Positions 10,697-29,497 of a stretch of DNA of 32,000 nt are shown here, piece after piece (the first letter of the stretch is position 1; the number at the start of each line of letters is the position of its first letter). Both the position numbers and the translations under genes were made by a program. The stretch is taken from NCBI RefSeq assembly GCF_001306055.1, contig NZ_LGHJ01000028.1, positions 1-32,000 on the forward strand, read 5' to 3'. Source of the stretch: Bellilinea caldifistulae (GTDB lineage Bacteria; Chloroflexota; Anaerolineae; Anaerolineales; Anaerolineaceae). Below the pieces are notes generated by a model, which saw only the letters and a list, made by a program, of their open reading frames with translations, ran no database searches and was not told the DNA's origin.

Positions 10697-10701
10697 CACC
10701 C

Positions 10702-11826: not shown

Positions 11827-11829
11827 ATA

Positions 11830-11914: not shown

Positions 11915-12622
11915 TTAGCCAAGGATAACTGAATAATTGATACCAATTATCTCTTCACCGCTTGCATCTCGATGTATGCTAAAGGAAGGATTTTCGTAGA
12001 TTGACAAAATAGGTAATTGAATATCAAATGGAAAAATTTCATTTGCCCTGATTAAGTCTTGAAGCGGTAAATATCTGTCCGGAGATTTTAAAATTACTGC
12101 TTCAAATAACCACTCAATCAACTCAGTATTTGAGATTATCCTTGGAGATGATGTGATGAAGCCATTTTCTCTTTGTTCCAGGACTCCCCAATTGAGAAGA
12201 GTTTGAATTATTCGTTCTATTGATCTCTTAATCGTTATCTGATTGCTATATTCTCCTAGAATTCTAGAAATGACCTCTTGCTTTGTGATGGTCTCTTGGA
12301 TTTTCGATAGAGAACCAATTATTTTTACCGTCTGGCTAAATATAGGGAATATACACAAAGACATTCCCCAGTGAAGAGCCAAATGCTCATTAGTGGATAA
12401 ATTGGGTAAAAGGACTACTGCTTTTTCCTTCAATCGTTGGTAAAGTGGTTCTTTGGGAAACCACATATTCGATAAAATGTTTGCTGTTCTTCGCCCTGAT
12501 TGAGGAGCTATCCCTTGCATTATCAGAAAAGGTTTAATCTGAGAGGGATCCCCTTTTTGCATGGCCACATTCAGCGCAAATTCTGCCCACTCATAACGGA
12601 TAAATCGGTCAAAAATGGTCAT
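11915..12622 (-). CDS. all-helical 235-aa protein, BrxA (DUF1819)-like by pattern; last gene of the operon
   Basis: ATG 12622-12620 overlaps the helicase stop codon (ATGA). The segment order resembles BrxA blocks: APQSGRRTANILSNMW / EHLALHWGMSLCIFPIF / ITIKRSIERIIQTLLNWGVLE. This similarity was judged by eye only. Confidence 0.75.
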   Translation of the reverse strand: MTIFDRFIRYEWAEFALNVAMQKGDPSQIKPFLIMQGIAPQSGRRTANILSNMWFPKEPLYQRLKEKAVVLLPNLSTNEHLALHWGMSLCIFPIFSQTVKIIGSLSKIQETITKQEVISRILGEYSNQITIKRSIERIIQTLLNWGVLEQRENGFITSSPRIISNTELIEWLFEAVILKSPDRYLPLQDLIRANEIFPFDIQLPILSIYENPSFSIHRDASGEEIIGINYSVILG

Positions 12623-15600
12623 ATAGCATCCTCGTGTGGTAGAGGTTTGTCTAGAATCTGCCCAAGAACTATCCAAGCCAAACGACGCTCAAGTTTATCA
12701 TGGAGATACTGATTCTGATAACTGCGCAGACATGAGTAGCAACTGGTATCTTGACTGCAACCTTTACATCCTACCACCCGATCATAAGCGCCTTCAAATA
12801 CTTTATACAGATTGTCATAAATCATGCGGACATAACCTGCGCCTCCGGGGGTGTTATCATACAAGATGAATGAGGGTGTACCCTCTCGGTAATACACAAC
12901 CCCGTCCACTTCATTTACAGGTATATCCAATTTTTCCACAGCACCAAATAACAGGGCATAGAGGACCGAATAAATAGTTTTCTCATCTTGAATTGAAATA
13001 CTCAAGTTAAGCTCCAGCACATCGGTCATAAAGCGGTGTCCAAGGTGATAAATTGCATAAGTTCCACTACATTCCTTGCCAGTTTCCGGGTTTTTGTGAT
13101 TGGGTTTCTTGTGACGATGTTGAGAAGGATTAACCACTTCAGCGTATCCGCATGTTCTGCACACTCGAAAGCCATCCCCGTAGCCGTTATTCACCCGCAC
13201 TAACCAACCATATCGGGAATAACCCTTGTAGACGGAGATACCTGATGAGAACTCTGGGTCGATTTCCAGAGGTAAATCTAGTTTTTCGTAGGTGTTCGAT
13301 TGAGTTGTGTAGTGTGAGAAATAAACCTTGCTTGCGTAGATCCGTTCTGGGGGTTGTTCTCCCGGTATATCCGTTTCGCTTGAAGCCACAAAACCAAGTT
13401 CTGGTATAATGAAAGTTCCTGCTAACCTGTTCCTGATATTAACCATCGTCCCACACACAGCACAATGATCAATGGGTGCTGTCTCACCCGCTCTTATATT
13501 CATTCGCTTACAATTTGGACAAACTGCATACGAGAAAGGTTCCCATGATTTTTGGGGATGTTTTTTGATCCCCTTGCTGTACCAAATCCGCTTTGCGGCA
13601 ACCACCTGTCCACCGGGAGCAAATTCAGAAATAGCTATTTGTAAATCACGTTCTAACTGAATATCTTTTGCAATTTCAATATTAAGGTGATTCGTCTGCA
13701 ATGTAACTACATCAGTTGGAAAACCATATTTTGGTAGGACATTCGTAGAACCCAAATACCCTAATAAATCTCGTTCACGAATCTGTTTCTGGATTTGCAT
13801 GTATTTTTGTGCCTGGGAATAATTTCGGTTCGCAGATGCTTGTTGCTCTAAATTTTGGAATTCATTGATTTCTCTCTGAATGGTTTGAACAGATTTATCT
13901 AAAACAGCTTCGTCACTTTCCAGTAAATAAACCTGCCATTCCCAATTTTTCAATTTTAATGTTTCGCGCAGTTCGTCATCATTGGGAATAATTCTCTCAA
14001 GTGCAAGTTCAATTTCAGACGGACGATTTTGAAGGAATTTCTTAAGCAATTCAGGCCCATTAGGGTAAGATATGTTTTCCGGATCCACAAAATCTCCCAC
14101 ATTCCGGTACTCAATGTTGTAATTTTCTTTCACCCATCGGAAAAATGCAGCAAAGACTACCGAATGTAAATGGCGTCGAATAATTTTGTCATTCTTCAGT
14201 GAAATGATGGGTGGACGGATTTTTCCGGAAACCATCGTTTCCGGAGAATCATAAAACATCAAGTCATGAGGACGACGTTGGGCAAAGGTGACTACCATTG
14301 CTACGCTATCCGTCCTACGCCCAGTCCGTCCAGCACGTTGAATGTAGTTTGCACTGGAAGGGGGCATATTGCGCAGTACCACTGCATTCAAGTCTCCAAC
14401 ATCTACCCCTAATTCAAAGGTGGTGGAAGAACTCAGAACATTGATTTTCCCTACAACAAAATCTTTTTGAACTTCTGCTGCTTTTGCAGAGACCCATTGG
14501 GCAGTGTGTTCTTCAGCCTCTAAAGGGACAATGTACTCGTGAAGATATTGGGAACGATACATGTTATCTTTAAGCCATGCACCATGATCACCGAGCGGAT
14601 GCAAGGATCCCATGCACCCGTATGTGGGACACACATTATTCAAATTATGTGGGGTCAGGTTTTGGCATTTATCGCAAATATACCATTTCCCTATACCTTC
14701 ATCTATGGCTGGAATAACTTCCCAGGCTTGATGGTTCAGGCGGTACAATACCCCTTCACCTTTGATGTTTGCTTTTTTCAGCCAAAAGTCTTGCACAGGA
14801 CTGGCGTTTCCTGTGAGATATTCCCAAATTTCCATTAATAACTCGAGACTAAGCGTAAGAACTTTGTCTTCTGCTAACTGAGACTGTTGGCGCCTTAACA
14901 ACCGCGTCAAATAATCAAGGCGCGTATTCTTCATATTGGGTGCAGGACACCAACTATAAATTCCTTGTTGACTTGTTACACTCGCTCCATTATTTCGCAC
15001 ATAGAACAATTTATTTCTGGGCAGAAAGGCATTTTGCCTTTCTGCTAACAAATCAATCCCTTCATCTTCCAACAGATAAGTTACCGCTCCTTGCCGACGG
15101 AGTGTATTTAGCAAAATGGTTAAGAGGTTTTTCGCTTCGTCTGAAGTCAGATTCCACGGAGATTGGTTGAAAACTTCTGGAAGCATCCACCCTGCCCCAA
15201 ATTTTGGTTGGAAATAGACCAGCCCTACCCCTTCGAGACTAATTCGTTTATCTAAACCACTGAATTCTTGCATGAGCCAGGATGCTACCTCTATTCGCTT
15301 GTTCCTGATCGACTCTTCTATATAAAAAACCCCATATTGATCAACCAATTTGATTAGGGGGGGCAAACAATCGGGTACACGCATGGGTTCTCCCATGTCC
15401 AGTTGACTTTGTTGTTTCAACATCTTTGTAATTAAACGACGCTGCAAAATCTTCTTTTGAGCACGTTCCAGATAAGCAGCAAAAAAAGCCGCTTGCTGGC
15501 GATTATCGGAAAAAACCAGCATTTTCCGTCCTTCACCGGGGTATTGACGCTCCGTTTCTTTTCGCGCAGGAGGTACATGCTCATATAAAGCGCCAGCCAG

Positions 15601-17643
15601 AACACTCACCGGAGCATCCTGACCGGTAAGAAAGCGATATACCACCCCGTTCCGGTTGTAAGTTGAACAGGAAGTACATCGAATTAAGGTCTTCCCTTTT
15701 TCCATTTCGATTTTCGCTAATTTCAAGAATGGGACTCCACAATCACAACGTCTTGCGCCCGTTCCAGGAAAATACAAAGCACCACATTTTGGGCAAATTT
15801 CAACGGGATTAGGCTTTTCAGTGCCAACATGAGTATCAATTTCTGCTTTTTCCTCAATCAGGGCATCTTCATCCACTTCAACGTTATCTAATTTCTCTTC
15901 TAAGGAAAAATACTCTACTCGCTTGGCTTCCAGTTCGTTCTGATATAGCACACTGTTTTGAGTGAGGTATTCTAAATCTAAATCGAGACGGACATACTTT
16001 TCATCCGCAATATCTTTACCCGATGTTTCGTTCCCAATCAGGTACGTTACCCCACATCGTGTGCAGTTGGCTATTTCAAACACTCGACTTCCGCAGTGAG
16101 GGCAGAACTTTTGTCGCTTGAGAAACAAAATTGGTTTTGGATTAGGGCTTTGATGTTCAGGCGCATGGGTGTTAAGACAAACAAATGCTCCTTCCAAAGC
16201 CCGAATAAAAACATGATACCTGGCAGGTAAGAGCGGGGCACTTTGAGGCATTTCCCGCGCTAAGATAGCCGCAGATACCAGGTTGGCGAGGGAAGATTGG
16301 GCTTGTTCCTTTGGCAGATCCTCAAAAATAATGCCAGCGATTTCGTTGAACTTATAGGGTTTCTCTCTCAAAAAACTGCGGAGTTTATGGATGCGACCAT
16401 CCCCTCTAAGCACCTGGTAAATATATCTTGGCACTGCCTGTTCCGGGTGAGATTGAGCTTCCTTAGCAGCCTGTGAAAGAATGTTATCAGGAACTCCAGA
16501 AAGTTCATCAGGAATGAATGGCTGTTGACCTTGCCGCCACCCTTCTGCAAGAGAAGCCACTTCAACATACAATTGCTCAGTGCCTTCTCCCCATACATCT
16601 CCTAATTCGCTTTCGGGTTTGCGTTTCCCTAAAACCACATCCTGACGATTGGTGTCTTCAGGAATCCATTCAAAAGGTAAGTTAAATAACCGGGAAGCAA
16701 ACTCAACAATTTTTTGTAAATTCTCAGGACTTTCGTCTCCCAGGGTTGCGCTTGTGGCAATGGCTTGGAGTGTTTTTGGGCTTTTTCGAGTAACACGTTC
16801 CTGTAAACGGCGCAAAAGCATGGCGATTTCTGTACCCTGCGCGCCATCATACACATGGGCTTCGTCCAGCACAATAAATCGCCAGTGCTGTCCGGTTTCC
16901 CCATCAAAAAGCGGAGAGTCTTTCGGACGCAATAAGAGATATTCCAGCATCGCATAGTTGGTCAACAATAGGTGTGGTGGGGTTTGTTGCATTTGCTGAC
17001 GACTGATTAATTCATTGGGTAGGGGCTCCGGGAAAGGACTTTCCCGATGTAATTCTCGGTACAATTGCTCCGCCATATTCTGACCATCTGGAGTCTCTCC
17101 AATATAGCGTCCAAATGTAATAGCAGGATATTGCTTCAATATACTCCGCAAACGATCCATTTGGTCGTTTGCCAGAGCATTCATGGGGTATAACAACATT
17201 CCACGCACCCCCGGCTGGGAAAGCGTGCCGTTTTCTTCTTCCCGAAGCAATGCGTCGAGTATAGGAATTAGAAACGTTTCGGTTTTTCCACTACCAGTAC
17301 CTGTAGTGACCACAACATTACGTCCGTTGCGGACTTTGCGGATGGCTGTCTCTTGATGAAGGTATAATGGACGCTCGTAGTCCAATCCTCCTGGATCACA
17401 CAGGGTTTGAAACTTTTGTGAAAGAATTCCCTCCTGAACCAATTCACGAATGCTCTTTCCTGTCTCAAAAGGTGGGGTAATTTCCAGATACGGTCCCTTG
17501 ATCAATAGGTCTTCTTCTTCCAGGGCTTGGGCAAACTCCTTGCGCAAGCGCTCATCTTGAAAAGGCTTGATGGTCTTCAAGTAGCGAATATAGGTATCCC
17601 TTAGATGGGCTGTGGTGTGAATTGGATGAAGGGTGTTTTTCAT
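12619..17643 (-). CDS. giant SF2 DEAH-box helicase fused to a C-terminal DUF1998 (MrfA-type Zn-binding) domain; DruE / DrmA+DrmB / BrxHII-like (1674 aa)
   Basis: Motif I TTGTGSGKTETF, motif II VLDEAHVYDG, motif III TSATL, motif VI QRAGRTGRR. Zn ribbons lie between the RecA lobes (CPHCG..CTRCG; CPKCG..CDCG). The C-terminus carries CPNCK..CAVCG, CRTCG and GCKGCSQDTSCYSCLRSYQNQYLHDKLERR. AAGGAG SD is present, and the gap to the upstream stop is 2 nt. Confidence 0.95.
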   Translation of the reverse strand: MKNTLHPIHTTAHLRDTYIRYLKTIKPFQDERLRKEFAQALEEEDLLIKGPYLEITPPFETGKSIRELVQEGILSQKFQTLCDPGGLDYERPLYLHQETAIRKVRNGRNVVVTTGTGSGKTETFLIPILDALLREEENGTLSQPGVRGMLLYPMNALANDQMDRLRSILKQYPAITFGRYIGETPDGQNMAEQLYRELHRESPFPEPLPNELISRQQMQQTPPHLLLTNYAMLEYLLLRPKDSPLFDGETGQHWRFIVLDEAHVYDGAQGTEIAMLLRRLQERVTRKSPKTLQAIATSATLGDESPENLQKIVEFASRLFNLPFEWIPEDTNRQDVVLGKRKPESELGDVWGEGTEQLYVEVASLAEGWRQGQQPFIPDELSGVPDNILSQAAKEAQSHPEQAVPRYIYQVLRGDGRIHKLRSFLREKPYKFNEIAGIIFEDLPKEQAQSSLANLVSAAILAREMPQSAPLLPARYHVFIRALEGAFVCLNTHAPEHQSPNPKPILFLKRQKFCPHCGSRVFEIANCTRCGVTYLIGNETSGKDIADEKYVRLDLDLEYLTQNSVLYQNELEAKRVEYFSLEEKLDNVEVDEDALIEEKAEIDTHVGTEKPNPVEICPKCGALYFPGTGARRCDCGVPFLKLAKIEMEKGKTLIRCTSCSTYNRNGVVYRFLTGQDAPVSVLAGALYEHVPPARKETERQYPGEGRKMLVFSDNRQQAAFFAAYLERAQKKILQRRLITKMLKQQSQLDMGEPMRVPDCLPPLIKLVDQYGVFYIEESIRNKRIEVASWLMQEFSGLDKRISLEGVGLVYFQPKFGAGWMLPEVFNQSPWNLTSDEAKNLLTILLNTLRRQGAVTYLLEDEGIDLLAERQNAFLPRNKLFYVRNNGASVTSQQGIYSWCPAPNMKNTRLDYLTRLLRRQQSQLAEDKVLTLSLELLMEIWEYLTGNASPVQDFWLKKANIKGEGVLYRLNHQAWEVIPAIDEGIGKWYICDKCQNLTPHNLNNVCPTYGCMGSLHPLGDHGAWLKDNMYRSQYLHEYIVPLEAEEHTAQWVSAKAAEVQKDFVVGKINVLSSSTTFELGVDVGDLNAVVLRNMPPSSANYIQRAGRTGRRTDSVAMVVTFAQRRPHDLMFYDSPETMVSGKIRPPIISLKNDKIIRRHLHSVVFAAFFRWVKENYNIEYRNVGDFVDPENISYPNGPELLKKFLQNRPSEIELALERIIPNDDELRETLKLKNWEWQVYLLESDEAVLDKSVQTIQREINEFQNLEQQASANRNYSQAQKYMQIQKQIRERDLLGYLGSTNVLPKYGFPTDVVTLQTNHLNIEIAKDIQLERDLQIAISEFAPGGQVVAAKRIWYSKGIKKHPQKSWEPFSYAVCPNCKRMNIRAGETAPIDHCAVCGTMVNIRNRLAGTFIIPELGFVASSETDIPGEQPPERIYASKVYFSHYTTQSNTYEKLDLPLEIDPEFSSGISVYKGYSRYGWLVRVNNGYGDGFRVCRTCGYAEVVNPSQHRHKKPNHKNPETGKECSGTYAIYHLGHRFMTDVLELNLSISIQDEKTIYSVLYALLFGAVEKLDIPVNEVDGVVYYREGTPSFILYDNTPGGAGYVRMIYDNLYKVFEGAYDRVVGCKGCSQDTSCYSCLRSYQNQYLHDKLERRLAWIVLGQILDKPLPHEDAI

Positions 17644-17645: not shown

Positions 17646-20600
17646 TTACTCCTTATCAGAAAAAACATCTTGGGGGGAGTGAACAGAAAAGCGAAGAGGA
17701 AGGGTCATTTTGTAAGGGAAAACAATAGGGAAAGTATCATATTGGTGCTGGGTGGTGTGACGATGCCTCTCCCAAGCAATAATACCTTTACAGGTGATAA
17801 ATCGCTTACACTTTGTGCAAATTTGGCCTGCGTTTCTTCCTATAAAACTCAGTTCATTTGCTTCAAGGTCAATAGTTGCTTCCTCGGCAATTGATGTCTC
17901 TTCACGCGTCTCTTCCTCCCTCAAAACAATGTGCAAACGCGGTTTCTCTTTTTCGAGAAGGAAATAATCATTGCTGCTTGAACCTTCAATTTTGACAATT
18001 TTTCCCCAGCCCGCATCACTGAGCACCCAGTATCCCTTATGTACCACTAAATCAGGACAACTGTGTTTGGCTGAGAAAAAGCCCAGTAATCTCCATCGAA
18101 TTGGACTATCTGGCATTTCTCTCAAGAAAGGAAACGAAAATTCAGGATTCGCAAGAAGTACGTTTGCAGCGCCCTCTTCCGAAATTTTTCCCTGCTGCAA
18201 ATAATTTTGCAATATATCCAAACCACGACTATCTGAATTTTTGATGAGCACCTCCAATGCTCTCAGCATGACCAGAGGATTTTTGGACATTCCTGTTACG
18301 AGATAGGCACTTTCCGGGTTCAGAGTTCTTGCATTCACAACAAGATCAAGATACCTTTGCACAAAATTTTTATCTGAATCTTGCTGAAGTCTCAAAAGAG
18401 TTTCTTTCCGGAACATGTTTAGAAGGATAGCTTTCCTGCTCGAAGGGTCAATCTCTGCCAACCAATCCTGCAGAAAGTAAAGCAGTCGCAGGGGAGCACT
18501 GGACCAATTTGAACATAACCATTGGATTTCATGATTAAGCTGGCTGGCATTTTTTTGGCTGTGGTAAATACAGGCTTTTTCCAGATGCAAGGCAAAGGAT
18601 CGTTGAGGATGTATTTGCAGTTGTTCCTCAATTTCGTCTAACCTTTGAGGTGGAGAAACCATCTCTATAAGGATGGAATTCTCCGGTGGTCTCGGAGGTG
18701 GATCTTGCAAATCATACCGTCCCATAGCCACAAATTGAAGGCGATATTGAGAAGGCGGCAAAGAATATTCTTTCGGAATATCCATTTGCCACCAACCCGG
18801 CTCGTTATGTCGCGTGCTGGGAGAAAGATCGTCAGGAACAGGAATCTGAATTGGATCTGACCAGGGTTGCCACAGACCCCAAATACGCACATATCGTTGA
18901 CGCAACGGCTCAGGCTCAAACCAGTGCAACCGCCTGCCTCTGTTCTGGAGAATCTCGATTTCACATTTTTGAATATTAAGATCGCGATGGGCTTGCAAAA
19001 CCGGTAACTCAATGCTTTGCTCATTGAATTGCATTTTCAGGATGAAATATAAGATAGACGCCCTGGAATGGCTTCGTAAAGTATCATGAAATGCATTGAG
19101 TTGAAAAACCAATTCCCGTTGATATGTTTGTTGGGGAGGTTGTACTTGTAGGGTTTCATTCTCGTTGTCATCCGTTAAATGGAGCTCCACAATATCCAAT
19201 TCCATCGCAGAAGGAATTTTCAGGAATAACCGGGGATTGTCGCTTTGGAGTATTTTGGCGAGGGATAAGGATAAAGGCTTATCTTGCCATTCACGGGGTT
19301 TACCGGATATCAATTCTAATGACCACTTCAAGTGTGGAATTTCAATCTTGAAAGGTACCCGAATGATCTCTTTCTCGGTGGGCTTTTCAATTTGCAGAGC
19401 AACCTGTTCGTCTTCCGCAGGTACGTTGATTTGCCACCTGTCGCCTATGTTTTGTATTTCCGCCTCGCTATCTTCCAACAGGGAAAGAGAGAAACCCTCT
19501 GGAAGCCGAATCGAAAACTGCACATCCTTTGCCCCTTGCCAATCAGGAAGATAATAAGGGTGAAGATCTTCCACCTGAATAGAAGAGGGCAAAACACGGA
19601 AGGGGAGTTCTGCTTGAAAACTATTGCCCCGCTGGATTGTAAGATGAAAAGTACCGCAGGGGGCTTCTCCCAGCACCTTATGGAGAGATAATCGAACCAC
19701 ATTGTTTTCCGGAACGTTCTCGCCCGGAAAATCGCCGGCAGAATACTCCCACTTCCCTTGCGGGTTTGCAGCGAAACGAGACTGCAGGTGAATTTTCCAG
19801 CGGCTCAGTTCACTTTCCAAATGCTCAAAATCATGAACAGGGAGTTCCAAACCGGGACTTCCCAGATAGACGGGTTTCTCTTCTATCGGCAGGCTTTGGG
19901 GTAAAAGTATGCCAACAATTTTTGGCTCTTGTGTCCACCGGACAGGCAAAGGGGGGCAAACATCCTGCCCCTGGCGCTGTAAACGAATGAGGCTGGCATT
20001 CCTGAGATCCCACGCTTGGGATTGCCAATTGTCCAAAGGTGGTGGGAAAGGATGTAAATGTTCAACTTCATGAACAGACCCTGAAAACAACAATTCAGCA
20101 TCCGCCGGATAGAAAAGCCACAACGTCTCTGCAGGGATTACCGGGTTGAGAGAACACGCGCTATTATCCCTGTAACGGAAGGCAAAAACAGGCACTTCGG
20201 AAGAGGGCAAAAGACGCAGAGAACGCTTAAAAAGCGTTGTTTCGTTTCCTTCTTCACTTTGCCCTACAAAGGAAATTTCGGCATATGGAGCAAGCGTCTC
20301 CGGCTGGTAGGAAACTTCATCCGTATGTACTTCTGAACCACTGCGTCGAACACGCAGACGAAGGGTTCCTTCTTCCCCAACAGGCTGGGTGCTATCAACA
20401 AGGCGTATCCTCCAGAAAAAACAGACATAACGCGATTGCTCTTCAGAAGAGATAGGTTGGGCAGGCAATTGAATGTTTAAGCCGGGAGCGTAGGGATCAA
20501 AATACAAACGCGGCAAACGCCGGCGAATGGATAATTCAGCCCGGTTTTGCCAGAAATGCTCAAAGGCTTGTACCACATACGGGCGGATACCTAAAGTTGC

Positions 20601-21248
20601 TGCATCGGGAATGGGGTTCCCTTGCACGGCTTCACGCGCCATCTGGCGGCATTTGCTGAAAAAGCGTTGGGCCGGTTCCCCCCCATATTGGAAAAAGTGA
20701 CGCACAACGTCATCCACAAACAATTCAGCCGTATAATGGTTGAGCAATTCTTCCAGTGCTCGACCGTCTTCCAGATCTTTGTAAGGGGGTTTTTGCACCG
20801 AAGGAAGCAAAATGTGCTGAAAGAAATCCGCTAGAGAGTAAGCCGGAATGCCCCCATGAAGACGGATGGGATTTATATATCCTTCTTCGAACTCATTTCG
20901 AAAGTCCCGGAGATTGGGGTACTGCTGAATAATTTCGCGGAACAATCTTCCCCAGTGATGGTTTGGGTGAAATATTGCGACGTGATCTATTTCAAACGCT
21001 TCGGCTACCTTATCCCAAAAACTGCGTTCGTCGTTGAATGCTGCCTTAAATGACAGATAGGTCACAAAAACGGCGGGAAAATGTGTCCCGAAGTTTCGAG
21101 TGGCTTGGGTTAATCCGTACCGACGTATCCATTTTTCCAGCTCTATTTCCAATTCCGCATGCTGTTCCCGAGAAAGCGGAATTTCTCCCAGCAACTGAAT
21201 TTGGCTGAGATAAGGTTCTAAGTAAGTTTCCCATTCGTGAAGGTGCAT
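17646..21248 (-). CDS. 1200-aa protein of unknown function (no catalytic motif recognised); candidate DruH-like or novel component
   Basis: One long uninterrupted ORF embedded in the operon, with a 27-nt gap upstream and a 2-nt gap downstream. The only feature seen is a C-terminal CTKCKRFITC...HRHTTQH Cys/His cluster. Confidence 0.9.
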   Translation of the reverse strand: MHLHEWETYLEPYLSQIQLLGEIPLSREQHAELEIELEKWIRRYGLTQATRNFGTHFPAVFVTYLSFKAAFNDERSFWDKVAEAFEIDHVAIFHPNHHWGRLFREIIQQYPNLRDFRNEFEEGYINPIRLHGGIPAYSLADFFQHILLPSVQKPPYKDLEDGRALEELLNHYTAELFVDDVVRHFFQYGGEPAQRFFSKCRQMAREAVQGNPIPDAATLGIRPYVVQAFEHFWQNRAELSIRRRLPRLYFDPYAPGLNIQLPAQPISSEEQSRYVCFFWRIRLVDSTQPVGEEGTLRLRVRRSGSEVHTDEVSYQPETLAPYAEISFVGQSEEGNETTLFKRSLRLLPSSEVPVFAFRYRDNSACSLNPVIPAETLWLFYPADAELLFSGSVHEVEHLHPFPPPLDNWQSQAWDLRNASLIRLQRQGQDVCPPLPVRWTQEPKIVGILLPQSLPIEEKPVYLGSPGLELPVHDFEHLESELSRWKIHLQSRFAANPQGKWEYSAGDFPGENVPENNVVRLSLHKVLGEAPCGTFHLTIQRGNSFQAELPFRVLPSSIQVEDLHPYYLPDWQGAKDVQFSIRLPEGFSLSLLEDSEAEIQNIGDRWQINVPAEDEQVALQIEKPTEKEIIRVPFKIEIPHLKWSLELISGKPREWQDKPLSLSLAKILQSDNPRLFLKIPSAMELDIVELHLTDDNENETLQVQPPQQTYQRELVFQLNAFHDTLRSHSRASILYFILKMQFNEQSIELPVLQAHRDLNIQKCEIEILQNRGRRLHWFEPEPLRQRYVRIWGLWQPWSDPIQIPVPDDLSPSTRHNEPGWWQMDIPKEYSLPPSQYRLQFVAMGRYDLQDPPPRPPENSILIEMVSPPQRLDEIEEQLQIHPQRSFALHLEKACIYHSQKNASQLNHEIQWLCSNWSSAPLRLLYFLQDWLAEIDPSSRKAILLNMFRKETLLRLQQDSDKNFVQRYLDLVVNARTLNPESAYLVTGMSKNPLVMLRALEVLIKNSDSRGLDILQNYLQQGKISEEGAANVLLANPEFSFPFLREMPDSPIRWRLLGFFSAKHSCPDLVVHKGYWVLSDAGWGKIVKIEGSSSNDYFLLEKEKPRLHIVLREEETREETSIAEEATIDLEANELSFIGRNAGQICTKCKRFITCKGIIAWERHRHTTQHQYDTFPIVFPYKMTLPLRFSVHSPQDVFSDKE

Positions 21249-21275: not shown

Positions 21276-23999
21276 TTATAAAAGGCTCTGCTGTCTTGGC
21301 TGATCCTCCCAACGCAGGCGCGCGTTGTCGGCATACATTAACAACTGAGAATCATCCTCAAATACCCGTTCCGGAAGGCGATTGGCAACCTGGACAATGG
21401 CAGCGTAATTGCGTTCCTTCCACGCCCGGCTGAAGCCCGCTCGGATGGCTTCCAATCGAAAGGCTTTCAACTTCCCCTTACTCTGCAGATAGGCGGCAAA
21501 CTCGCGCAGTAAACTCTTCTCCCGCAGGGCTTGCAAGTCGCTTTCTTTGGAGGGATCCGGTAACCGCCAGAGCCCCTCTGCATCCTCCAGAAAGTTTTCC
21601 TCCAGCATTGTTTTCAACTCGGGCATGGCTTCGTAGGGCAATTTGCGGCTTTCCTGGTTGAAGCGGATGAGCAAATCCGAGTACGTTTTGGGACCTTCTG
21701 CCAGTTGAACCCTCAACCACTGGATGGCGCTCTTCTCATCCGTGATCAACAGCGGCATTTGCTCTACCCGCTCGGCTTGCAGGCGCAATCGGTCAAACTG
21801 GCTGGCTTGGGGATAGGTGAAAATCATCCCTTCGCGTTCGGCAAAGCGCTCTTTTAAGCCAGCGTAAAATTGCGGCGCAGAGAGGGGCACGGCAAACCCA
21901 TGCTGAATGTGATAGGCAACCATGCGGTCGAACAGTACATAGGGGGCGCGCTCTTGGACGAACTCGAGCAGAACGTCGTTCTTCAGCATCGGCATGGGCA
22001 GGAACTCCAGATGCTGACGCACAAACTCCCAGGCCCCCTCCACCGTACCGGCTTCCAGCGCAAACTGCTGTTCAAATATGGCGGTGGGCTTGTAAGCCGA
22101 GATGATCAGGTCCTGCTTGACGGCGCCAAAGGCGTTGACCTGATTGAATGTTCCTTGTATTTTGTCTATCGTACGTACATCGGCGATCACAAAACCGGCG
22201 CGTAACAGGGCTTCTTGAATGGCGTTCCAGACGGCGTTTTGCGAGTTATGGAACTCTACCGTCATCCAGCGCCCGGGTTTGAGCACGCGGTAGAACTCGC
22301 GGAAGCAGGCTTCCATGAGGGCTTGATATTCGGGCAAGCCCTTGCGCTGGGTCTTGTTGACCACCGCCTCGGGCGCGTTGTTGGTGAAAACGCCCAGCCA
22401 GGCTTCCCAGAGGAAGTTGAGTTCGCTGTACATCAGGTTGGCGCCGAAGGGAGGGTCAATAAAAATGTAATCTAATGAATTATTAGGCAAGTTTAATCTG
22501 TTGCTCGATTGGGTTGATAATAAACCAAAACTATTCTTCTTAGTTCTTATCAGTAGATTTAGAAGTTTATAGAATTTTCTTGAGATAAAAGGAATTGGAT
22601 CTATCTCTCTAATTGTGGATGCAATATATAAAGTTCTAGATAATTTACTAGGTATACCACTTGTCCTTTCTCGGTTTAATTTTGAGGAGCCTTCAGTAAT
22701 TCCTGTAAGTAGCCAAAGCAAATAATTTTTGTGTGGAGATTTTCCCATTTTTTTAAAAATTTCCGCCAGCGCCCATAGATTGCGGCGGGTGTAGAAATGG
22801 TGCACGTGGGTAACTCCCACGTTAAACGGGTCGCTGGTTTTGTCACCCTTCGGCAAAGGATAGGTCGGGAACGGATAAGGAATGTCGCTGTTTTCGATTT
22901 TCTCCAGCAGGGCAAGGTCTGCGGCATCCGGGCGTTTTTCGTAGCGCTTCTTGCCCACGCTGTAGTTGATCAGCACCGGCACCTGCTTGGCTTGGCGCAC
23001 GGTTTGCCCGATGGCGCGGTCGTACTTGGTTTCAAAGGCGCGCTCCACCCGCAGGGTGCGGCTTTCTTTGCGCGGGCTCTTGCTGAGCAGGGCGCCACAT
23101 CCAGGACAGTGCCAATCGTCGCGAATCTGCCCGTTTTCATGATCCACCGCCACGTCCCAGAAGACCATCTCTGCCCCACACTGCGGGCAGAGAAAGACAT
23201 CCGACCAGACGGTATAGTTGATTTTGCCTTTTACCCCCTCACCCCCAGCCCCTCTCCCAGCGGGAGAGGGGGGCGTGTGCCAGGTTTCGTACATCCAGTC
23301 GCATTCTTTTTCTACTTCCCGGAGAATGCGCTGGGCTTCACGCTCAAAGGCGCGCGCATCGGCCGGGGTGTTGTAGTTGTAAGCGATGAACGTGGCGGCG
23401 GGGGAGAGATCAATGAGCACGGCTTTACGCGTCCCCAGGCGGGAAATGGGCTTATCACCTTCCCAGATGATGTCCTGCTCATCCACGCGGTAGCCCAGGC
23501 TCTCCACAGTTCTTTGATCGCCACATAATTGCGCCGCCACGCCGGTCATGCCGGTGCCGCAGAATCCGTCCAGCACAATATCGCCCGGTTCGGTGTAGTG
23601 CAGAATATAGCGCATGATGGCTTTGTGCGGCACTTTGGTGTGATACGAATGGGCATTGTAGATAGGATCGTTCTTACCCTCCGAGACATCTGCGGCAAAT
23701 GGCTCGCGATGGTAGTGGTTCTCGGCATCGTTGGGCAAGCCCATTTTCTCGCGGGTCTGGCGCCGTTCTTCCTGCCATTGCGCCAAAATTTCCTCCATGA
23801 AGGGATTGGGACAAGCCGTGTAGTAGGGTGGATCGGAGAGGTTGAGGATGGCTTCGTCGCTGGCAATGGGAAAGCCGGGAATCTGGCGGAATTGCGCATC
23901 TTTTAGGTGCTGGCATAGTTTCTCCCGCCATTGCTGACGTTCTTCTTCGGAAACCATTGGGGTAGCATTGACTTGCTCAAACAGTTCGTCTTGATGCAT
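21276..23999 (-). CDS. DNA N6-adenine/N4-cytosine methyltransferase (N6_N4_Mtase-like) with permuted motif order and an inserted zinc ribbon (907 aa from ATG 23999; the ORF extends to TTG 24026)
   Basis: HTKVPHKAIMRYILHYTEPGDIVLDGFCGTGMTGVAA is the SAM motif I block. LDYIFIDPPFGANLMY (motif IV) lies about 350 aa later. CPQCG...CPGCG lies between them. ATG 23999 sits 10 nt after the upstream TAA and follows AGGAAG. Confidence 0.9.
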   Translation of the reverse strand: MHQDELFEQVNATPMVSEEERQQWREKLCQHLKDAQFRQIPGFPIASDEAILNLSDPPYYTACPNPFMEEILAQWQEERRQTREKMGLPNDAENHYHREPFAADVSEGKNDPIYNAHSYHTKVPHKAIMRYILHYTEPGDIVLDGFCGTGMTGVAAQLCGDQRTVESLGYRVDEQDIIWEGDKPISRLGTRKAVLIDLSPAATFIAYNYNTPADARAFEREAQRILREVEKECDWMYETWHTPPSPAGRGAGGEGVKGKINYTVWSDVFLCPQCGAEMVFWDVAVDHENGQIRDDWHCPGCGALLSKSPRKESRTLRVERAFETKYDRAIGQTVRQAKQVPVLINYSVGKKRYEKRPDAADLALLEKIENSDIPYPFPTYPLPKGDKTSDPFNVGVTHVHHFYTRRNLWALAEIFKKMGKSPHKNYLLWLLTGITEGSSKLNRERTSGIPSKLSRTLYIASTIREIDPIPFISRKFYKLLNLLIRTKKNSFGLLSTQSSNRLNLPNNSLDYIFIDPPFGANLMYSELNFLWEAWLGVFTNNAPEAVVNKTQRKGLPEYQALMEACFREFYRVLKPGRWMTVEFHNSQNAVWNAIQEALLRAGFVIADVRTIDKIQGTFNQVNAFGAVKQDLIISAYKPTAIFEQQFALEAGTVEGAWEFVRQHLEFLPMPMLKNDVLLEFVQERAPYVLFDRMVAYHIQHGFAVPLSAPQFYAGLKERFAEREGMIFTYPQASQFDRLRLQAERVEQMPLLITDEKSAIQWLRVQLAEGPKTYSDLLIRFNQESRKLPYEAMPELKTMLEENFLEDAEGLWRLPDPSKESDLQALREKSLLREFAAYLQSKGKLKAFRLEAIRAGFSRAWKERNYAAIVQVANRLPERVFEDDSQLLMYADNARLRWEDQPRQQSLL
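23249..23271. repeat. GC-rich perfect palindrome (10-bp arms, 3-nt loop) embedded in frame in the methyltransferase gene
   Basis: CCCCTCTCCC-AGC-GGGAGAGGGG, flanked by C-rich and G-rich runs (23235-23275). It encodes PPSPAGRGAGGEG. Confidence 0.85.
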
Positions 24000-24009
24000 A
24001 TCTCTTCCT

Positions 24010-27000
24010 TTACCAGTCAATCTCAATGCGTACTTTGGTGAGATCCTTATCGCCGATTTTCTTATCCAACAAAGTTTTCAACCGTTGGTAGAGTTCTTCG
24101 ATGGTGCAGGGCATTCCCGGCTGGGTAAGAGCAATCAAGAAGTCGCTGCCTTCCAGCACCACTTTATCCAAACCGCGTAGCGCGTCGTTGATAGCCTCAA
24201 CGAGATTCCTGGATACCGGAGAAGTAAACTCGCCCTTTTCCACGAACTCCTTGATCTGCTCGCGGTAGGGCGATTTGAGCAAAGTGATATTTTCGGCAAC
24301 TTCGGGTTTTTGTAATTCCTCACGCAGCCGGGCAATCCACTTGCTGTGCACCAGGTTCAGGTTTTCTTCTAATTTCTCCAGTCGCTCCACAGCAGAGAAG
24401 GAGAACATTTCACTGCGCGGGTCAAAGCCACAGTGAGGGCATTCGGTGTATTTGGATAAATCCTCAAGCGTAAGGTTCGGACAGGAACGCAATTCCGAAA
24501 ATTCTTTTTGCAAGCGAGTCAGTTCACTGTTGGGCAGGATAATCACCTCTTGTAAGGTAAGCAAATGGCGCCAGTGCGGGTTTTGGGTCAACTTCTGCTT
24601 TCGCTCATCGCCCAAACGGTCGAGCCGCGCTCTGGCATGTAGATTAAGATATGCCTGCGCATAAGACGACCGCAGATTGCTCAGTCCGCCATTCAGACGG
24701 GAATACAGCGAAGGGTCGGCGCGTTGTTGAGGATTTCTTAACCAGGTAAGATGCTCATTCCTCAAGCGCTGAGCCTCGAGATGCCATGGATGATGCTCAG
24801 GAAGATGCAAATCAGCCCGTGTTATGTACTGGAGATGAGATTGTACCGATTGAAGGACATCCCGGAGCATGATAAGAACTTTGAGAGTGTCTCGTCCCTT
24901 CAGTTGTGCTTGCACTTCCCCAACTTCGAGAGAAAACTGCTGCAAACGCCCGGGGGTATTCAAGCGTTGAATCATCTCCAGCAAATTTTTATAGTTATCC
25001 AACGACTTACGATAAGATTGAATTTCATCTGAAGATAGAACAGGCTCTCCCCAATACTGTAAGCCATCCCGCAGTCCATCCATCACCATCACTAGGCGTT
25101 GAAGTTCTTCATTAGCGAACTGATTCAGTTCTTGGACCATGCGTTCATGCTGTTCGGAGTAATCTACCCATTCTGGAGGGAACCCCAGTCCTTGCAAGAG
25201 CGCTTTCAGCGCTTTTTCGGGTATCGGCTTTGGCCGAGAAATAGCAGAAAACTGCATGAAATCTTCAATTTTCAGACGCGCTACTTCATTAAGATCATCT
25301 GAAGTGAATGTTTTTCCCATCCAGTTAATAGTGATGGCGCCTTGACGGAGAAGCGCCGCTAGAACAACCATCAACAGTTCCGGCTCAAGGCCAAACTGAA
25401 CTTCACGCTCTTCATGACGTGGGTCAGGCGGGGCTATTAAGTCCTTGCGGTTGAGTACCTGAGCGGGAGGAAGTGTATCCAATTTATTGAGCACTGCCCG
25501 GGCGTAACGAGATTCCAGAACAGTGAAGACTGGTTTATTATTCTCTTTTCGAAGTAAATCAAGTCCTTCCAGAATACTCTGGGCTTGGATATTCATCGAG
25601 CCACCTGTCATTGCGCGAATTGCCCATTCCGCGGCTTCCGGTAAGGACTTCAAGGTAAGTTGCATGCCGACAAAGGATGGGTATTCGGGGTACTTTTGGT
25701 CAAAAACAGGCTGGAGGATGGCGGAAGCAAGTTGATAGATCTGATCGCGCAAATTGATTTCCTGGCGGAAAAGACGATACTCGCCCTTGTAATCAGCCAC
25801 CCGGCGAGAAACCGCCCCGTATCGAATGGAAAAAGCCTTGTCGAAGTATTCCCGAATCCAGCGGGAAAGGTCTCTCAGATGGTTTTCTGCTTTTTTTTCA
25901 TACTGCATCTTATTACTTCCGGAAGAAATTGTCGACATTTCGCGTGCGCCAGCATATAACCTGAGCGAGCGCAGAAAATCTTCCTGAGGGGACTCAAGTA
26001 CAAAGAAAATTTCATCCGAACGGGGCTGGTCATTTTTTCCGTTAGTTTTGAATAGGTGCAAGAAGTGAATATAAAAGTCGCGCTCCGGGTGGGTGGTGGA
26101 GAGTTCATCGCGCGTACCCAGGAAAATATAACCATCCCGGGTAATTCCATGACCTTGCCAAGGGATCTCAACCTGCCAGATGCGAAAACCGGTCCGGTAG
26201 GTGCTATCGCTTAATTCCAGAAGGCGCCTTAAGGCATCGAAGTAGTAGCGGTCAAGAGTATCCGGATCCAATACAGCGGCACGTTGCTCGATTTGAGCAT
26301 CAAAATCAATGTCTTTATCTAAATCAAGATAATACTGATCGTTTTCCGGATTACGGGAGAGAAATTGCCCGCTAACTGTTCGGGAAATTTCCTGCAGAAC
26401 ATTTTCCACACTGGTCAGTAGGAAAGTTGCATCGGTTTCAGGAATAGGCAGATACAGACACAGACGATCGCGCAGTTCTCTGGGGGTCAATCCAATCGGC
26501 ACACGCAGGTCGCCGGTAGTGAGGCGATGAAGCGAAAGACTGTGGATGATCCGAATAGCGGCATCTCGGTAAATGGGAGAAAGGGCATTACGCACCCGCT
26601 CTTCCAGCACCTGGCTCTTGTCCATCACCTCCCGAATTTCTGGGATTGCTCTGTAAGAAGGGTCTTCGAGAATCAAACGCCAGAATGCATCAAACGAAAT
26701 CAGCCCAGGGCGGTCTTCTGGGACTTCCTGTTGAAGTATTTGACGTATTTCGTGACTGACTGCCTTGAGGGCTTGCCGTTTTTCAATAACTGTCACTCGC
26801 TCGAACATTTCCAAGTATGCCGGGTGAATGGGGAACAACGCAACAAAGTCTTCTAAACGCTCTGCCATTGAGTCGTACAGGGGGGTGAACTTTTGTAAGT
26901 AAGTTCGAATCTGTTGGCGTTGTTTCTCATACTTCGCAAGTAAACGGCGAGAGACGACAAAAGCCACATCTTCGCGGACAATGCGGACTTGTTGATACCG

Positions 27001-27717: not shown

Positions 27718-27725
27718 GATAAACC

Positions 27726-29420: not shown

Positions 29421-29497
29421 AAATAACCTGCGAGTCAAGGAATAGATTTTTGGAATAAGAATTTCGCTCAGGAAAGACTGTATAGGCCAAAAACTCA

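What the first reader, a model, noticed from the sequence alone, without database searches (positions are those of the whole stretch)
17646..21248. 1200-aa motif-less protein at the position where BREX-3 would carry PglZ
This is the largest unknown in the operon and is tightly coupled to the helicase (2-nt gap). Reading the sequence, I find no Walker motifs, no nuclease, phosphatase or PLD signatures, and no TM segments. The only feature is a C-terminal Cys/His cluster (CTKCKRFITC ... HRHTTQH). Its size and its position directly upstream of a helicase-DUF1998 protein fit DruH of Druantia type III. Equally, it may be a functional replacement for PglZ. In either case the likely specificity or effector component is uncharacterised.
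Basis: inference. Interest (0 to 1): 0.7.

Follow-up and report, generated by a model that had tools for sequence, protein, structure and literature searches.

The report
DruH-like partner of a Druantia helicase
The 1200-residue "motif-less" protein is a real, widely conserved but unannotated partner of a Druantia-type defence helicase, built like the known DruH protein, and here the pair sits inside a BREX type 3 DNA-methylation cassette in place of the usual BrxHII helicase and PglZ.

Summary
ORF 21248..17646 (minus strand) encodes 1200 aa, ends 2 nt before the helicase ATG, and matches nothing in Pfam, NCBIfam or PADLOC. It has no Walker, PLD, PD-(D/E)xK or TM features. It carries a conserved C-terminal Cys/His cluster.

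It is Bellilinea caldifistulae BECAL_03056, one member of an unannotated family of about 1700 clusters at 50% identity, almost all from Chloroflexota.

In every locus with downstream DNA (29 loci, plus three more), the gene lies directly upstream of a compact DruE-type (YprA-family) helicase. About half of these loci hold the full set NERD-helicase, BrxC, PglXI, X, DruE, BrxA. Others hold only X and DruE among housekeeping genes. X therefore belongs to the helicase, not to BREX.

The AlphaFold2 model (pLDDT 88) has an α domain, about six Ig-like domains, an α domain, a β-barrel and a C2H2-like zinc finger. The first three parts follow the order solved for DruH.

Sequence membership in DruH is not met: all 11 PADLOC DruH models, Pfam YjiT and the NCBIfam model miss it. 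Only the N-terminal domains align weakly (hhalign P 1.6e-4).

Relatives repeatedly fuse σ70 or RNA polymerase α-CTD modules.

Verdict: a DruH-like component of a Druantia-III-like module embedded in a PglZ-less BREX-3 cassette. This is a new variant of a known kind.

The parts
17646..21248 (-). Target gene X (1200 aa + stop): DruH-like partner of the DruE-type helicase; BECAL_03056
   Evidence: ORF. RBS. 100% identical to an NCBI protein, with a large family. No hit in any HMM library.
20529..21248 (-). X residues 1-240: all-alpha N-terminal domain. It is the most conserved part (mean pairwise identity 0.40) and a weak remote match to the DruH N-terminal domain.
   Evidence: AF2 DSSP. Conservation. 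hhalign N-N Prob 50%, P 1.6e-4, against P>=0.044 for all non-cognate domain pairs.
20820..20867 (-). X residues 128-143, signature motif IRLHGGIPAYSLADFF. H131, G132, G133 and F143 are invariant.
   Evidence: Invariant columns. Aligned by hhalign to the invariant EGGLPF..L of DruH.
18657..20528 (-). X residues 241-864: array of about six Ig-like beta-sandwich domains
   Evidence: AF2. Foldseek finds only tandem-Ig proteins such as titin, CSF-1R, ICAM-5 and NCAM2. The secondary-structure order matches the DruH beta region: Q3 0.775, z 7.5 against shuffled elements.
18054..18656 (-). X residues 865-1065: all-alpha C-terminal domain. By analogy this is the surface that would contact the helicase.
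   Evidence: AF2. In DruH the C-terminal helical domain binds the DruE stalk (10.64898/2026.05.13.724313). No sequence similarity to the DruH CTD was detected.
17835..18053 (-). X residues 1066-1138: small beta-barrel domain. Solved or predicted DruH has no such tail.
   Evidence: AF2 DSSP strands 1068-1135. The DruH model ends with helices.
17649..17834 (-). X residues 1139-1200: C2H2-like beta-beta-alpha zinc finger (C1144, C1147, H1162 plus H1164/H1168), net charge +4. It is a variable accessory slot that holds a full sigma-70 in some relatives.
   Evidence: Conserved ligands. A hairpin followed by helix 1156-1166. Charge. Sigma-70 in this position in L028 and five other relatives.
12619..17643 (-). 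Compact DruE-type (YprA-family) helicase, 1674 aa: DEAD, Helicase_C and MZB/DUF1998. It has no C-terminal nuclease domain.
   Evidence: PADLOC DruE1 1.1e-216 and DruE3 4e-189, against BrxHII only 1e-27. Pfam places MZB at 1562-1639 of 1674. Orthologues carry YjiV_N.
21276..24026 (-). PglXI-type DNA methyltransferase (BREX type 3)
   Evidence: PADLOC PglXI PDLC02541 E=0, Pfam N6_N4_Mtase.
24010..27729 (-). BrxC/PglY ATPase (DUF6079)
   Evidence: PADLOC BrxC PDLC02482 E=0 over its full length. Pfam DUF6079 1256 bits.
27726..29507 (-). NERD nuclease domain fused to a UvrD-like SF1 helicase. It occupies the BrxF position.
   Evidence: PADLOC RTasNERD-Hel 2.8e-97. Pfam NERD, AAA_19 and UvrD_C_2.
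11915..12676 (-). BrxA-like DNA-binding protein. The likely true start is M18 at 12625, which overlaps the end of the helicase gene.
   Evidence: PADLOC BrxA 1.2e-39.
29721..30593 (+). Tyrosine recombinase, divergent from the operon; one of two that flank the low-GC island
   Evidence: Pfam Phage_integrase 1.2e-36. GC profile.
6860..7678 (+). Second tyrosine recombinase, on the other side of the island
   Evidence: Pfam Phage_integrase 7e-41.

Best explanation
X is the DruH-equivalent subunit of a two-gene, Druantia-type-III-like restriction module made of X and a compact DruE helicase.

Shown here:
- X is translationally coupled to the helicase and is always found next to it.
- The pair also exists as a free-standing module.
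- X has the domain order of DruH: an alpha N-domain, about six Ig-like domains and an alpha C-domain. It adds a beta-barrel and a zinc-finger tail.
- Its N-domain shares the invariant W...GG[IL]P...L signature with DruH.

Inferred by analogy with the 2026 DruH-DruE work:
- X engages ssDNA-containing phage replication intermediates, such as 3' tails or forks, and/or phage proteins through its fast-evolving Ig array.
- Its C-terminal helical domain docks on the helicase.
- Docking converts the helicase from an autoinhibited form into an active unwinding or degradation complex.
- The basic zinc-finger tail probably adds nucleic-acid binding. Relatives carry sigma-70 or alpha-CTD modules in that slot.

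In Bellilinea the pair has replaced BrxHII+PglZ inside a BREX type 3 cassette. BrxC, PglXI and BrxA are retained, and a NERD-UvrD protein stands in for BrxF. PglXI methylation would then mark self DNA. X, DruE and the NERD nuclease would act on unmarked DNA.
For: Synteny.
- In one search, all 29 loci with downstream sequence have the DruE-like helicase immediately after X on the same strand. The same holds in L038, L039 and L041.
- About 15 loci carry the full six-gene set. At least 9 loci with 6.6-10 kb of upstream flank carry no BrxC or PglXI. One of these, L037, has the pair between Sua5 and GntR genes.

Coupling. The gap is 2 nt and the helicase RBS lies inside X.

Helicase identity. PADLOC DruE1 1e-216. 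YjiV_N is present in orthologues.

Architecture.
- The target model has pLDDT 88 and reads alpha 1-235 / beta 247-862 / alpha 866-1061.
- The E. coli DruH model reads alpha 1-265 / beta 272-818 / alpha 834-1095.
- The beta-region secondary-structure alignment gives Q3 0.775 over 538 positions. It scores 188, against 149+-5 for shuffled elements and 150-172 for domain rotations. Three internal helices pair up.

Remote homology. hhalign N-domain against N-domain gives P 1.6e-4 and Prob 50%. The same register was recovered in four independent runs. W78, G132, G133, P135 and L139 align to the DruH invariants W89, G139, G140, P142 and L146.

Properties shared with DruH.
- X evolves fastest among the four large proteins (BrxC, PglXI, X, DruE): 44% identity where DruE is 61%, and 25% where DruE is 47%. 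The same pattern is reported for DruH against DruE.
- X is acidic, with net charge -38. The DruH surface is reported as largely negative.
- Foldseek neighbours are ICAM/NCAM-type Ig arrays, as reported for DruH.
Against: - No DruH model recognises X or its relatives: PADLOC x11, the precomputed Pfam PF27205/PF27201 and NCBIfam.
- HMMER cross-searches score 3 bits or less.
- Profile-profile similarity is confined to the N-domain and is not conclusive. The beta and C domains give P>=0.047.
- In the hhalign register the region of DruH R23/D29/R31 falls in a gap of X. This region lies near the proposed PaDruH catalytic residues R22/K28. A DruH-type exonuclease site is therefore not evidently conserved.
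- No 3D superposition could be made, so the fold argument rests on secondary-structure order.
- The helicase lacks the PLD nuclease domains of type III-A DruE, so the effector chemistry may differ.
- The published roles of DruH disagree with each other: ssDNA binder inhibited by ATP, 3'-5' exonuclease, dimer-dependent nickase, or protein sensor and scaffold.
Confidence: 0.7

Rival explanations
1. X is a functional substitute for PglZ. It would be a core BREX subunit that works with BrxC and PglXI in methylation and restriction, and the helicase would substitute for BrxHII.
For: X and the helicase occupy the slot held by BrxHII+PglZ in canonical BREX-3. BrxC, PglXI and BrxA are all bona fide. 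No PglZ-sized ORF exists elsewhere in the window. The six-gene order is conserved down to 25% identity of X.
Against: The model has no alkaline-phosphatase-type alpha/beta domain, and no PglZ HMM hits. X occurs with the helicase but without any BREX gene in at least 9 loci. It never occurs with BREX genes in the absence of the helicase.
Confidence: 0.1
2. X is mainly a transcription-linked sensor. It would bind RNA polymerase or promoter or open-complex DNA, or mimic polymerase parts as a decoy for phage take-over proteins. It would be only superficially DruH-like.
For: Of 31 extended relatives, 14 carry Sigma70_r4, 12 carry RNA_pol_A_CTD (up to 6 copies) and 5 carry a complete sigma-70 with regions r1.2-r4. 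One carries a Rex-like module.
Against: The window protein itself has none of these modules. It has a beta-barrel and a zinc finger instead. Only about 40 of the 256 family sequences held here have such extensions. The fusions fit equally well as extra DNA-binding modules added to a DruH-like DNA sensor.
Confidence: 0.12
3. X is a structural or surface Ig-repeat protein, such as an adhesin or S-layer-like protein, that merely lies next to defence genes.
For: Foldseek neighbours are Ig-repeat ectodomains and S-layer proteins.
Against: X has no signal peptide or TM segment. It is translationally coupled to a helicase. Its association with the helicase is invariant across phylum-level divergence. 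Relatives fuse cytoplasmic sigma and alpha-CTD domains.
Confidence: 0.02

Closest known systems
DruH (YjiT / STY4851-ECs_5259 family) of Druantia type III, with DruE
   Same: - The gene lies directly upstream of, and is coupled to, a DruE-type YprA-family helicase.
- The pair can stand alone as two genes.
- Size is about 1100-1200 aa.
- The domain order is N-terminal alpha domain, about six Ig-like domains, C-terminal alpha domain.
- The protein is acidic.
- It evolves faster than the helicase.
- No catalytic motif is recognisable.
- The N-domain has a GG[IL]P signature at the same position.
   Different: - It is not detected by any DruH, YjiT or NCBIfam model.
- HMMER similarity is nil, and only the N-domains align weakly.
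- It has an extra C-terminal beta-barrel and zinc finger.
- The partner helicase is compact (1674 aa, no PLD domains).
- It is often embedded with BrxC, PglXI, BrxA and a NERD-helicase.
- It is found almost only in Chloroflexota.
- Relatives fuse sigma-70 or alpha-CTD modules.
BREX type 3 (BrxF-BrxC-PglXI-BrxHII-PglZ-BrxA)
   Same: BrxC (DUF6079), PglXI and BrxA are present in the canonical order and match the type-3 models over their full length.
   Different: There is no PglZ, no Swi2/Snf2 BrxHII and no BrxF. These are replaced by X, a DruE-type helicase and a NERD-UvrD protein. By the usual definition, which requires PglZ, this is not a BREX system.
TALON, ARMADA and DISARM (other YprA-helicase systems; 10.1101/2025.09.15.676423)
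   Same: All are centred on a YprA-family helicase. TALON is likewise largely confined to Chloroflexota and includes a NERD nuclease. ARMADA and DISARM likewise combine the helicase with a methyltransferase.
   Different: - TALON has TPR-CSD and TBP genes and a helicase with a C-terminal inactive RNase H domain. Here the helicase ends 35 aa after MZB, and no such genes are present.
- ARMADA has a BrxHII-like helicase, a PglX/YeeA-type methylase and a Vsr nuclease on the helicase. None of these is present here.

Membership tests
DruH (Druantia type III accessory protein) | Recognised by DruH sequence models (PADLOC DruH3 x11; Pfam YjiT_N PF27205 and YjiT second domain PF27201; NCBIfam STY4851/ECs_5259) | tested here: not met
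   The target has 0 PADLOC hits at E<=10 and 0 NCBIfam hits at E<=1. None of the 120 listed homologues carries PF27205 or PF27201 in the precomputed Pfam, whereas all full-length DruH do. As a positive control, E. coli DruH hits all 11 PADLOC models, while four further family members hit no PADLOC model and P0091 hits none of the DruH models. HMMER cross-scores are 3 bits or less.
DruH (Druantia type III accessory protein) | Remote homology detectable by profile-profile comparison | tested here: inconclusive
   Full-length hhalign gives Prob 1.2%, E 0.045, collinear over 620 columns. N-domain against N-domain with broad profiles gives Prob 50%, P 1.6e-4, with shared invariant W/GGxP/L. The beta and C domains are not significant.
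DruH (Druantia type III accessory protein) | Architecture: N-terminal alpha domain, six Ig-like domains, C-terminal alpha domain | tested here: met
   AF2 models of the target and of E. coli DruH. Beta-region secondary-structure alignment z 7.5, Q3 0.775. Published cryo-EM descriptions. This test uses secondary-structure order only, because 3D superposition was not possible.
DruH (Druantia type III accessory protein) | Encoded immediately upstream of druE, with the pair able to stand alone | tested here: met
   29 of 29 loci, plus L038, L039 and L041. A stand-alone pair lies among housekeeping genes in L037.
DruH (Druantia type III accessory protein) | ssDNA binding or 3'-5' exonuclease activity, and DNA-dependent binding to DruE | not testable with these tools
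   This requires biochemistry. The proposed PaDruH catalytic region is not evidently conserved in the weak alignment.
PglZ (BREX) | Alkaline-phosphatase-superfamily PglZ domain (Pfam PF08665; PADLOC PglZ models) | tested here: not met
   No Pfam or PADLOC hit. The model is all-alpha plus Ig-like beta domains, with no alpha/beta phosphatase-like domain.
BREX type 3 (the whole operon) | BrxC, PglXI and BrxA present | tested here: met
   PADLOC E=0, E=0 and 1.2e-39 respectively.
BREX type 3 (the whole operon) | PglZ, BrxHII (Swi2/Snf2, RapA-like) and BrxF present | tested here: not met
   No PglZ hit among all ORFs of 200 aa or more. The helicase scores DruE 1e-216 against BrxHI/HII 1e-27, and the latter match covers the Helicase_C motif only. 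The first gene is NERD+UvrD-like, not BrxF.
TALON | YprA helicase with a C-terminal inactive RNase H domain, plus TPR-CSD and TBP genes and a NERD nuclease | tested here: not met
   MZB ends at 1639 of 1674, so there is no extra C-terminal domain. The operon has no TPR-CSD or TBP genes. Only the NERD feature is shared. The definition is taken from 10.1101/2025.09.15.676423.

The most novel reading that the evidence does not exclude
The X family is a second, sequence-novel lineage of DruH-type sensors with two unreported properties.

(i) It couples a Druantia-III-like helicase module to a PglZ-less BREX-3 methylation cassette. This would give Druantia an epigenetic self/non-self switch, and would show that the BREX methylation core can run without PglZ.

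(ii) It has repeatedly captured RNA-polymerase modules: a complete sigma-70, sigma region 4, and one to six alpha-CTD copies. Two readings fit. These could be integrated decoys for phage proteins that hijack sigma or alpha-CTD. Alternatively they could target the helicase to promoter or open-complex DNA.
Probability: 0.25. Interest if true: 0.8.

Novelty: new variant of a known kind. Interest (0 to 1): 0.62.

Why it matters
DruH is under active and conflicting study. Five 2026 studies (four preprints and one journal paper) variously call it an ATP-gated ssDNA binder, a 3'-5' exonuclease, a dimer-dependent nickase, or a protein sensor and scaffold.

A deeply diverged lineage of about 1700 clusters keeps the architecture but almost none of the sequence. 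It therefore shows which features are essential. The N-domain W/GG[IL]P motif stands out, and it is not among the residues those studies report mutating in the sections read here.

The operon is also a natural experiment. BrxC, PglXI and BrxA are retained without PglZ or BrxHII and are joined to a Druantia-type effector. This makes two open questions testable: what PglZ contributes to BREX methylation, and how Druantia tells self from non-self.

The sigma-70 and alpha-CTD fusions point to an unexplored link between helicase-based immunity and the transcription machinery.

On the practical side, current annotation tools would report this locus only as incomplete BREX plus an orphan DruE.

Tried and rejected
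- HMM libraries. Pfam, NCBIfam and PADLOC gave nothing for X, even at permissive thresholds.
- PDB by sequence profile. Only chance hits appeared, with E>=0.097.
- Foldseek of the full model against PDB and BFVD. It returned only generic tandem-Ig arrays with TM<=0.13. The Ig array dominates the match, so the alpha domains could not be assigned. A control search with a DruH model shows that the PDB copy (to April 2026) holds no DruH, so its absence from the target's hits says nothing.
- Baseplate-J similarity reported for DruH. It was not reproduced for X in BFVD. "Tip attachment protein J" hits appear, but through their Ig/FN3 parts.
- hhalign with AF2-derived secondary structure added. It gave no real gain.
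- Secondary-structure-string alignment of the alpha domains. It is uninformative, with z about 0.
- Test of whether the C-terminal helical domain is a degenerate sigma-70. It gave only P 0.007 against the helical linker of the sigma-fused relatives, and no match to the sigma regions.
- First representative search. It failed because the profile exceeded 1200 positions. It was repeated with a 48-sequence alignment. Only the best 150 of 1706 hits are listed, so the weak tail could not be inspected.
- Metagenome locus scan. It failed with a tool error and the cap was consumed.
- Viral contig scan. No relatives were found.
- Search for tRNA or att repeats bounding the island. None was convincing.
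- Supplementary Table S1 of the YprA preprint. It is held only in part (ARMADA I rows), so the authors' classification of this helicase clade could not be read.


Full report
**1. The observation**

The ORF is real and lies as described. It runs 21248..17646 on the minus strand, encodes 1200 aa and starts with ATG. A strong Shine-Dalgarno (GGAAAGGGGGAG) precedes the ATG. The ORF ends 2 nt before the ATG of the next gene, and that gene's GGAG ribosome-binding site lies inside the last codons of the target.

The protein is 100% identical to the NCBI entry "hypothetical protein BECAL_03056 [Bellilinea caldifistulae]". The window therefore comes from this thermophilic member of the Anaerolineae (Chloroflexota).

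- X matches no family in Pfam (E<=0.1), NCBIfam (E<=1) or PADLOC (E<=10).
- It has no Walker A, PLD, PD-(D/E)xK or DExH pattern and no TM-like segment. It is acidic, with net charge -38.
- The Cys/His cluster is at residues 1144-1168. C1144, C1147, F1150 and H1162 are at least 90% conserved.

**2. The operon**

Six co-directional, tightly packed genes lie on the minus strand.

| Coordinates | Product | Evidence |
|---|---|---|
| 29507..27726 | NERD nuclease domain + UvrD-like helicase | PADLOC RTasNERD-Hel 2.8e-97 |
| 27729..24010 | BrxC (DUF6079) | PADLOC BrxC E=0, full length |
| 24026..21276 | PglXI methyltransferase | PADLOC PglXI E=0 |
| 21248..17646 | X, the target | no hit in any library |
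| 17643..12619 | Helicase with DEAD, Helicase_C and MZB/DUF1998 | PADLOC DruE1 1.1e-216, DruE3 4e-189; BrxHI/HII only 1e-27 |
| 12676..11915 | BrxA | PADLOC BrxA 1.2e-39 |

- Orthologues of the helicase carry the Pfam domain YjiV_N, named after E. coli DruE.
- The helicase ends 35 residues after MZB. It therefore lacks the C-terminal PLD domains of type III-A DruE.
- No PglZ, Swi2/Snf2 BrxHII or BrxF is present anywhere in the window.
- The operon has low GC (0.39-0.49, against 0.55-0.65 next door). It lies between two tyrosine-recombinase genes and beside an RHS toxin gene, so it sits on a mobile island.

**3. The family and its contexts**

- A word-indexed search found more than 130 clusters of full-length homologues down to 24% identity. 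Those with a source name are called "hypothetical". None has a precomputed Pfam domain apart from fused modules.
- An exhaustive profile search found 1706 clusters (50% identity) at E<=1e-3 and 713 at E<=1e-30.
- A scan of one genome per species returned 31 loci, all from Chloroflexota: Anaerolineae, Ktedonobacteria and Chloroflexia.
- No relatives were found in viral contigs.

I mapped the six window proteins onto these loci by tblastn.

- In all 29 loci with downstream DNA, X is followed directly by the DruE-like helicase on the same strand.
- L038, L039 and L041 show the same arrangement.
- About 15 loci, the window among them, carry the complete NERD-helicase, BrxC, PglXI, X, helicase, BrxA set. 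This order is kept even where X is only 25% identical (L001).
- At least nine loci with 6.6-10 kb of upstream flank have no BrxC or PglXI. In L037 the pair lies between Sua5 and GntR genes.
- Some loci have only the pair plus the NERD helicase (L017, L029, L038, L039).
- X is the fastest-evolving of the four large proteins (BrxC, PglXI, X, DruE). In L004 it is 44% identical where DruE is 61% and PglXI 68%. In L001 it is 25% where DruE is 47% and PglXI 59%.

So X and the helicase form a self-contained two-gene module. In some genomes that module is embedded in a BREX-3-derived cassette.

**4. Structure**

AlphaFold2 with a 71-sequence alignment gave a confident model, with mean pLDDT 88 and pTM 0.66.

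- Residues 1-235: all-alpha domain.
- Residues 247-862: beta-rich region. Strand runs repeat about every 100 residues, which suggests about six beta-sandwich domains.
- Residues 866-1061: all-alpha domain.
- Residues 1068-1135: small beta-barrel.
- Residues 1140-1166: a beta-hairpin and a helix carrying the Cys/His ligands. This is a C2H2-like beta-beta-alpha zinc finger in a basic segment (net +4).

Foldseek against PDB and BFVD returned only tandem-Ig proteins such as titin, CSF-1R, ICAM-5, NCAM2 and phage tail Ig/FN3 arrays, all with low TM.

**5. Comparison with DruH**

Three 2026 preprints solved DruH.

[quoted passage not shown] - The surface is largely negative.
- Structural neighbours are ICAM/NCAM-type Ig domains, and there are no InterPro hits.
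- DruH is more divergent than DruE.

I retrieved full-length E. coli DruH/YjiT (L036:9001-12291, 1096 aa), which lies upstream of a 2114-aa DruE. I collected its family and modelled it. The model has pLDDT 82 and reads alpha 1-265, beta 272-818, alpha 834-1095.

*Sequence-level membership fails.*
- E. coli DruH hits all 11 PADLOC DruH models. X and four relatives hit no PADLOC model, and a fifth relative, P0091, hits none of the DruH models.
- DruH homologues carry Pfam PF27205 and PF27201. No X homologue does.
- NCBIfam names DruH "STY4851/ECs_5259 family". X gets no NCBIfam hit.
- Reciprocal HMMER searches score 3 bits or less.

*Profile-profile comparison is weak but consistent.*
- Full length gives E 0.045, collinear over 620 columns.
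- Among nine domain-by-domain comparisons, only the cognate N-domain pair stands out.
- With broad profiles (240 against 115 sequences) it reaches Prob 50%, P 1.6e-4 over 144 columns. Every non-cognate pair has P>=0.044.
- The register is the same in all runs. It aligns residues invariant in both families: W78~W89, G132-G133-x-P135~G139-G140-x-P142, and L139~L146.

*Fold order agrees.*
- A global alignment of the DSSP strings of the two beta regions gives Q3 0.775 over 538 positions, with a nearly constant offset.
- It scores 188. Element-shuffled controls score 149+-5 (z 7.5), the reversed string 143, and whole-domain rotations 150-172.
- Three short helices embedded in the Ig array pair up.
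- The alpha domains cannot be judged in this way (z about 0).

I could not superimpose coordinates, and the PDB copy holds no DruH.

My reading is that X is very probably a deeply diverged homologue of DruH. It is certainly an architectural and positional equivalent of DruH. It is not a member of the DruH family as currently defined.

**6. What differs from DruH**

- X has an extra C-terminal beta-barrel and zinc finger.
- This tail is the least conserved part of the protein. It behaves as an exchangeable slot.
- In Ktedonosporobacter rubrisoli (L028:9950-13990, 1346 aa) and five other representatives, family similarity stops near residue 860. A helical stretch of about 190 aa follows, and then a complete sigma-70 with regions 1.2, 2, 3 and 4.
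- Other relatives carry N-terminal extensions of 120-970 aa with one to six RNA polymerase alpha-CTD domains plus sigma region 4, or a Rex-like module.
- Of the 31 extended members scanned, 14 have Sigma70_r4, 12 have RNA_pol_A_CTD and 5 have the full sigma-70.
- These are all nucleic-acid-binding or RNA-polymerase-derived modules. At the least, they argue that the tail of the window protein is a nucleic-acid-binding accessory.

**7. Mechanism**

*Shown:* the coupling, the invariant partnership, the architecture and the modular contexts.

*Inferred from the DruH-DruE literature:*
- X recognises ssDNA-containing phage intermediates and/or phage proteins.
  - DruH trims 3' tails, and forms a DNA-dependent 1:1 complex with DruE through its C-terminal helical domain, which opens the helicase.
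  - DruH has also been proposed as a protein sensor that acts through its Ig-like domains.
- X would then activate the compact DruE.
- This DruE lacks PLD domains. DNA cleavage may therefore come from X itself or from the NERD domain of the first gene.
- In the six-gene form, PglXI methylation, helped by BrxC and BrxA, would protect host DNA.

The proposed PaDruH catalytic residues R22/K28 fall in a region that is gapped in the weak X-DruH alignment. I therefore do not claim exonuclease activity for X.

**8. Rivals**

- *PglZ substitute.* Disfavoured. The fold is wrong, and X travels with the helicase, not with the BREX genes.
- *Specificity subunit for PglXI.* Disfavoured for the same reason.
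- *Surface Ig-repeat protein.* Excluded by the lack of export signals and by the operon coupling.
- *Transcription-linked sensor or decoy role.* Not excluded. It is the most novel reading.

**9. Known systems and literature**

- The locus fails BREX type 3, because PglZ, BrxHII and BrxF are absent.
- It fails TALON, because the helicase has no C-terminal RNase H domain and there are no TPR-CSD or TBP genes.
- It fails ARMADA and DISARM.
- The searchable library holds no paper that mentions both Druantia and PglXI.
- The only relevant paper mentioning both DruE and BrxC is the YprA preprint, which does not describe this arrangement.
- The BREX-diversity preprint does not mention YprA, MZB or Chloroflexi.

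I therefore rate the finding a new variant of a known kind. It is a Druantia-III-like module with a sequence-novel DruH-like partner, hybridised with a PglZ-less BREX-3 methylation cassette.

Noticed in passing
L028:9950-13990 (Ktedonosporobacter rubrisoli); also P0341, P0347, P0359, P0364, P0367, P0368; L040:244-4281: These relatives of X carry a complete sigma-70 factor (regions 1.2, 2, 3 and 4; residues 1045-1326 in L028) in place of the beta-barrel and zinc-finger tail. They still lie directly upstream of the DruE-like helicase.
   Followed up: partly
L039:2987-9571 (P0279, 2194 aa); L003:3-6071 (P0091); P0270; P0104: Other relatives have long N-terminal extensions with one to six RNA polymerase alpha-CTD domains plus sigma-70 region 4. 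One has a Rex-like Put_DNA-bind_N + CoA_binding module. P0091 also has about 250 aa of coiled coil that hits the PADLOC JetC and LmuB models.
   Followed up: partly
window 12619-17643 (minus strand): The DruE-type helicase ends 35 residues after its MZB domain, so it has no fused nuclease, unlike E. coli DruE with its PLD domains. The only recognisable nuclease domain in the operon is the NERD domain of the first gene (27726-29507). The stand-alone X+helicase pairs have no recognisable nuclease at all.
   Followed up: partly
window 7700-11900: This GC-rich stretch (0.54-0.63) has many overlapping ORFs on both strands, and none of those tested has a Pfam hit. It contains repeated GC-rich palindromes: GCAGGGCTACCCAGCCCTGC at 8895, 10703 and (77% identical) 11805; GGTCGGCGGTGCAGCGCCGACC at 8656 and 9431; ACCGGCTTACAAAGCCCGT at 8012, 8060 and 8173. 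They look like REP-like or terminator hairpins.
   Followed up: no
window 1152-6539 (minus strand), 853-1155 (minus strand): A 1795-aa RHS-repeat protein (13 RHS repeats, DUF6531) is followed by a 100-aa ORF that overlaps its stop codon. This is probably a polymorphic toxin with its immunity gene, in a high-GC segment beside the defence island.
   Followed up: no
window 6860-7678 (+) and 29721-30593 (+): Two tyrosine recombinase genes bracket the region that holds the low-GC defence operon. No tRNA gene or convincing direct-repeat att sites were found.
   Followed up: partly
L001:18619-19605; L041:18579-20056; L038:19196-23555: Homologous loci sit in defence islands. A WYL+WCX (BrxR-like) regulator follows BrxA in L001. 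An AbiEi/AbiEii pair follows in L041. DUF499, ASCH and GmrSD_N genes follow in L038, which also has a 95-aa ORF inserted between X and the helicase.
   Followed up: no
window 12623-12676 and 23999-24026: The mechanical ORF starts of BrxA (TTG 12676) and PglXI (TTG 24026) are probably too far upstream. The family alignments begin near M18 of BrxA (ATG 12625, overlapping the helicase stop by 7 nt) and M10 of PglXI (ATG 23999).
   Followed up: no
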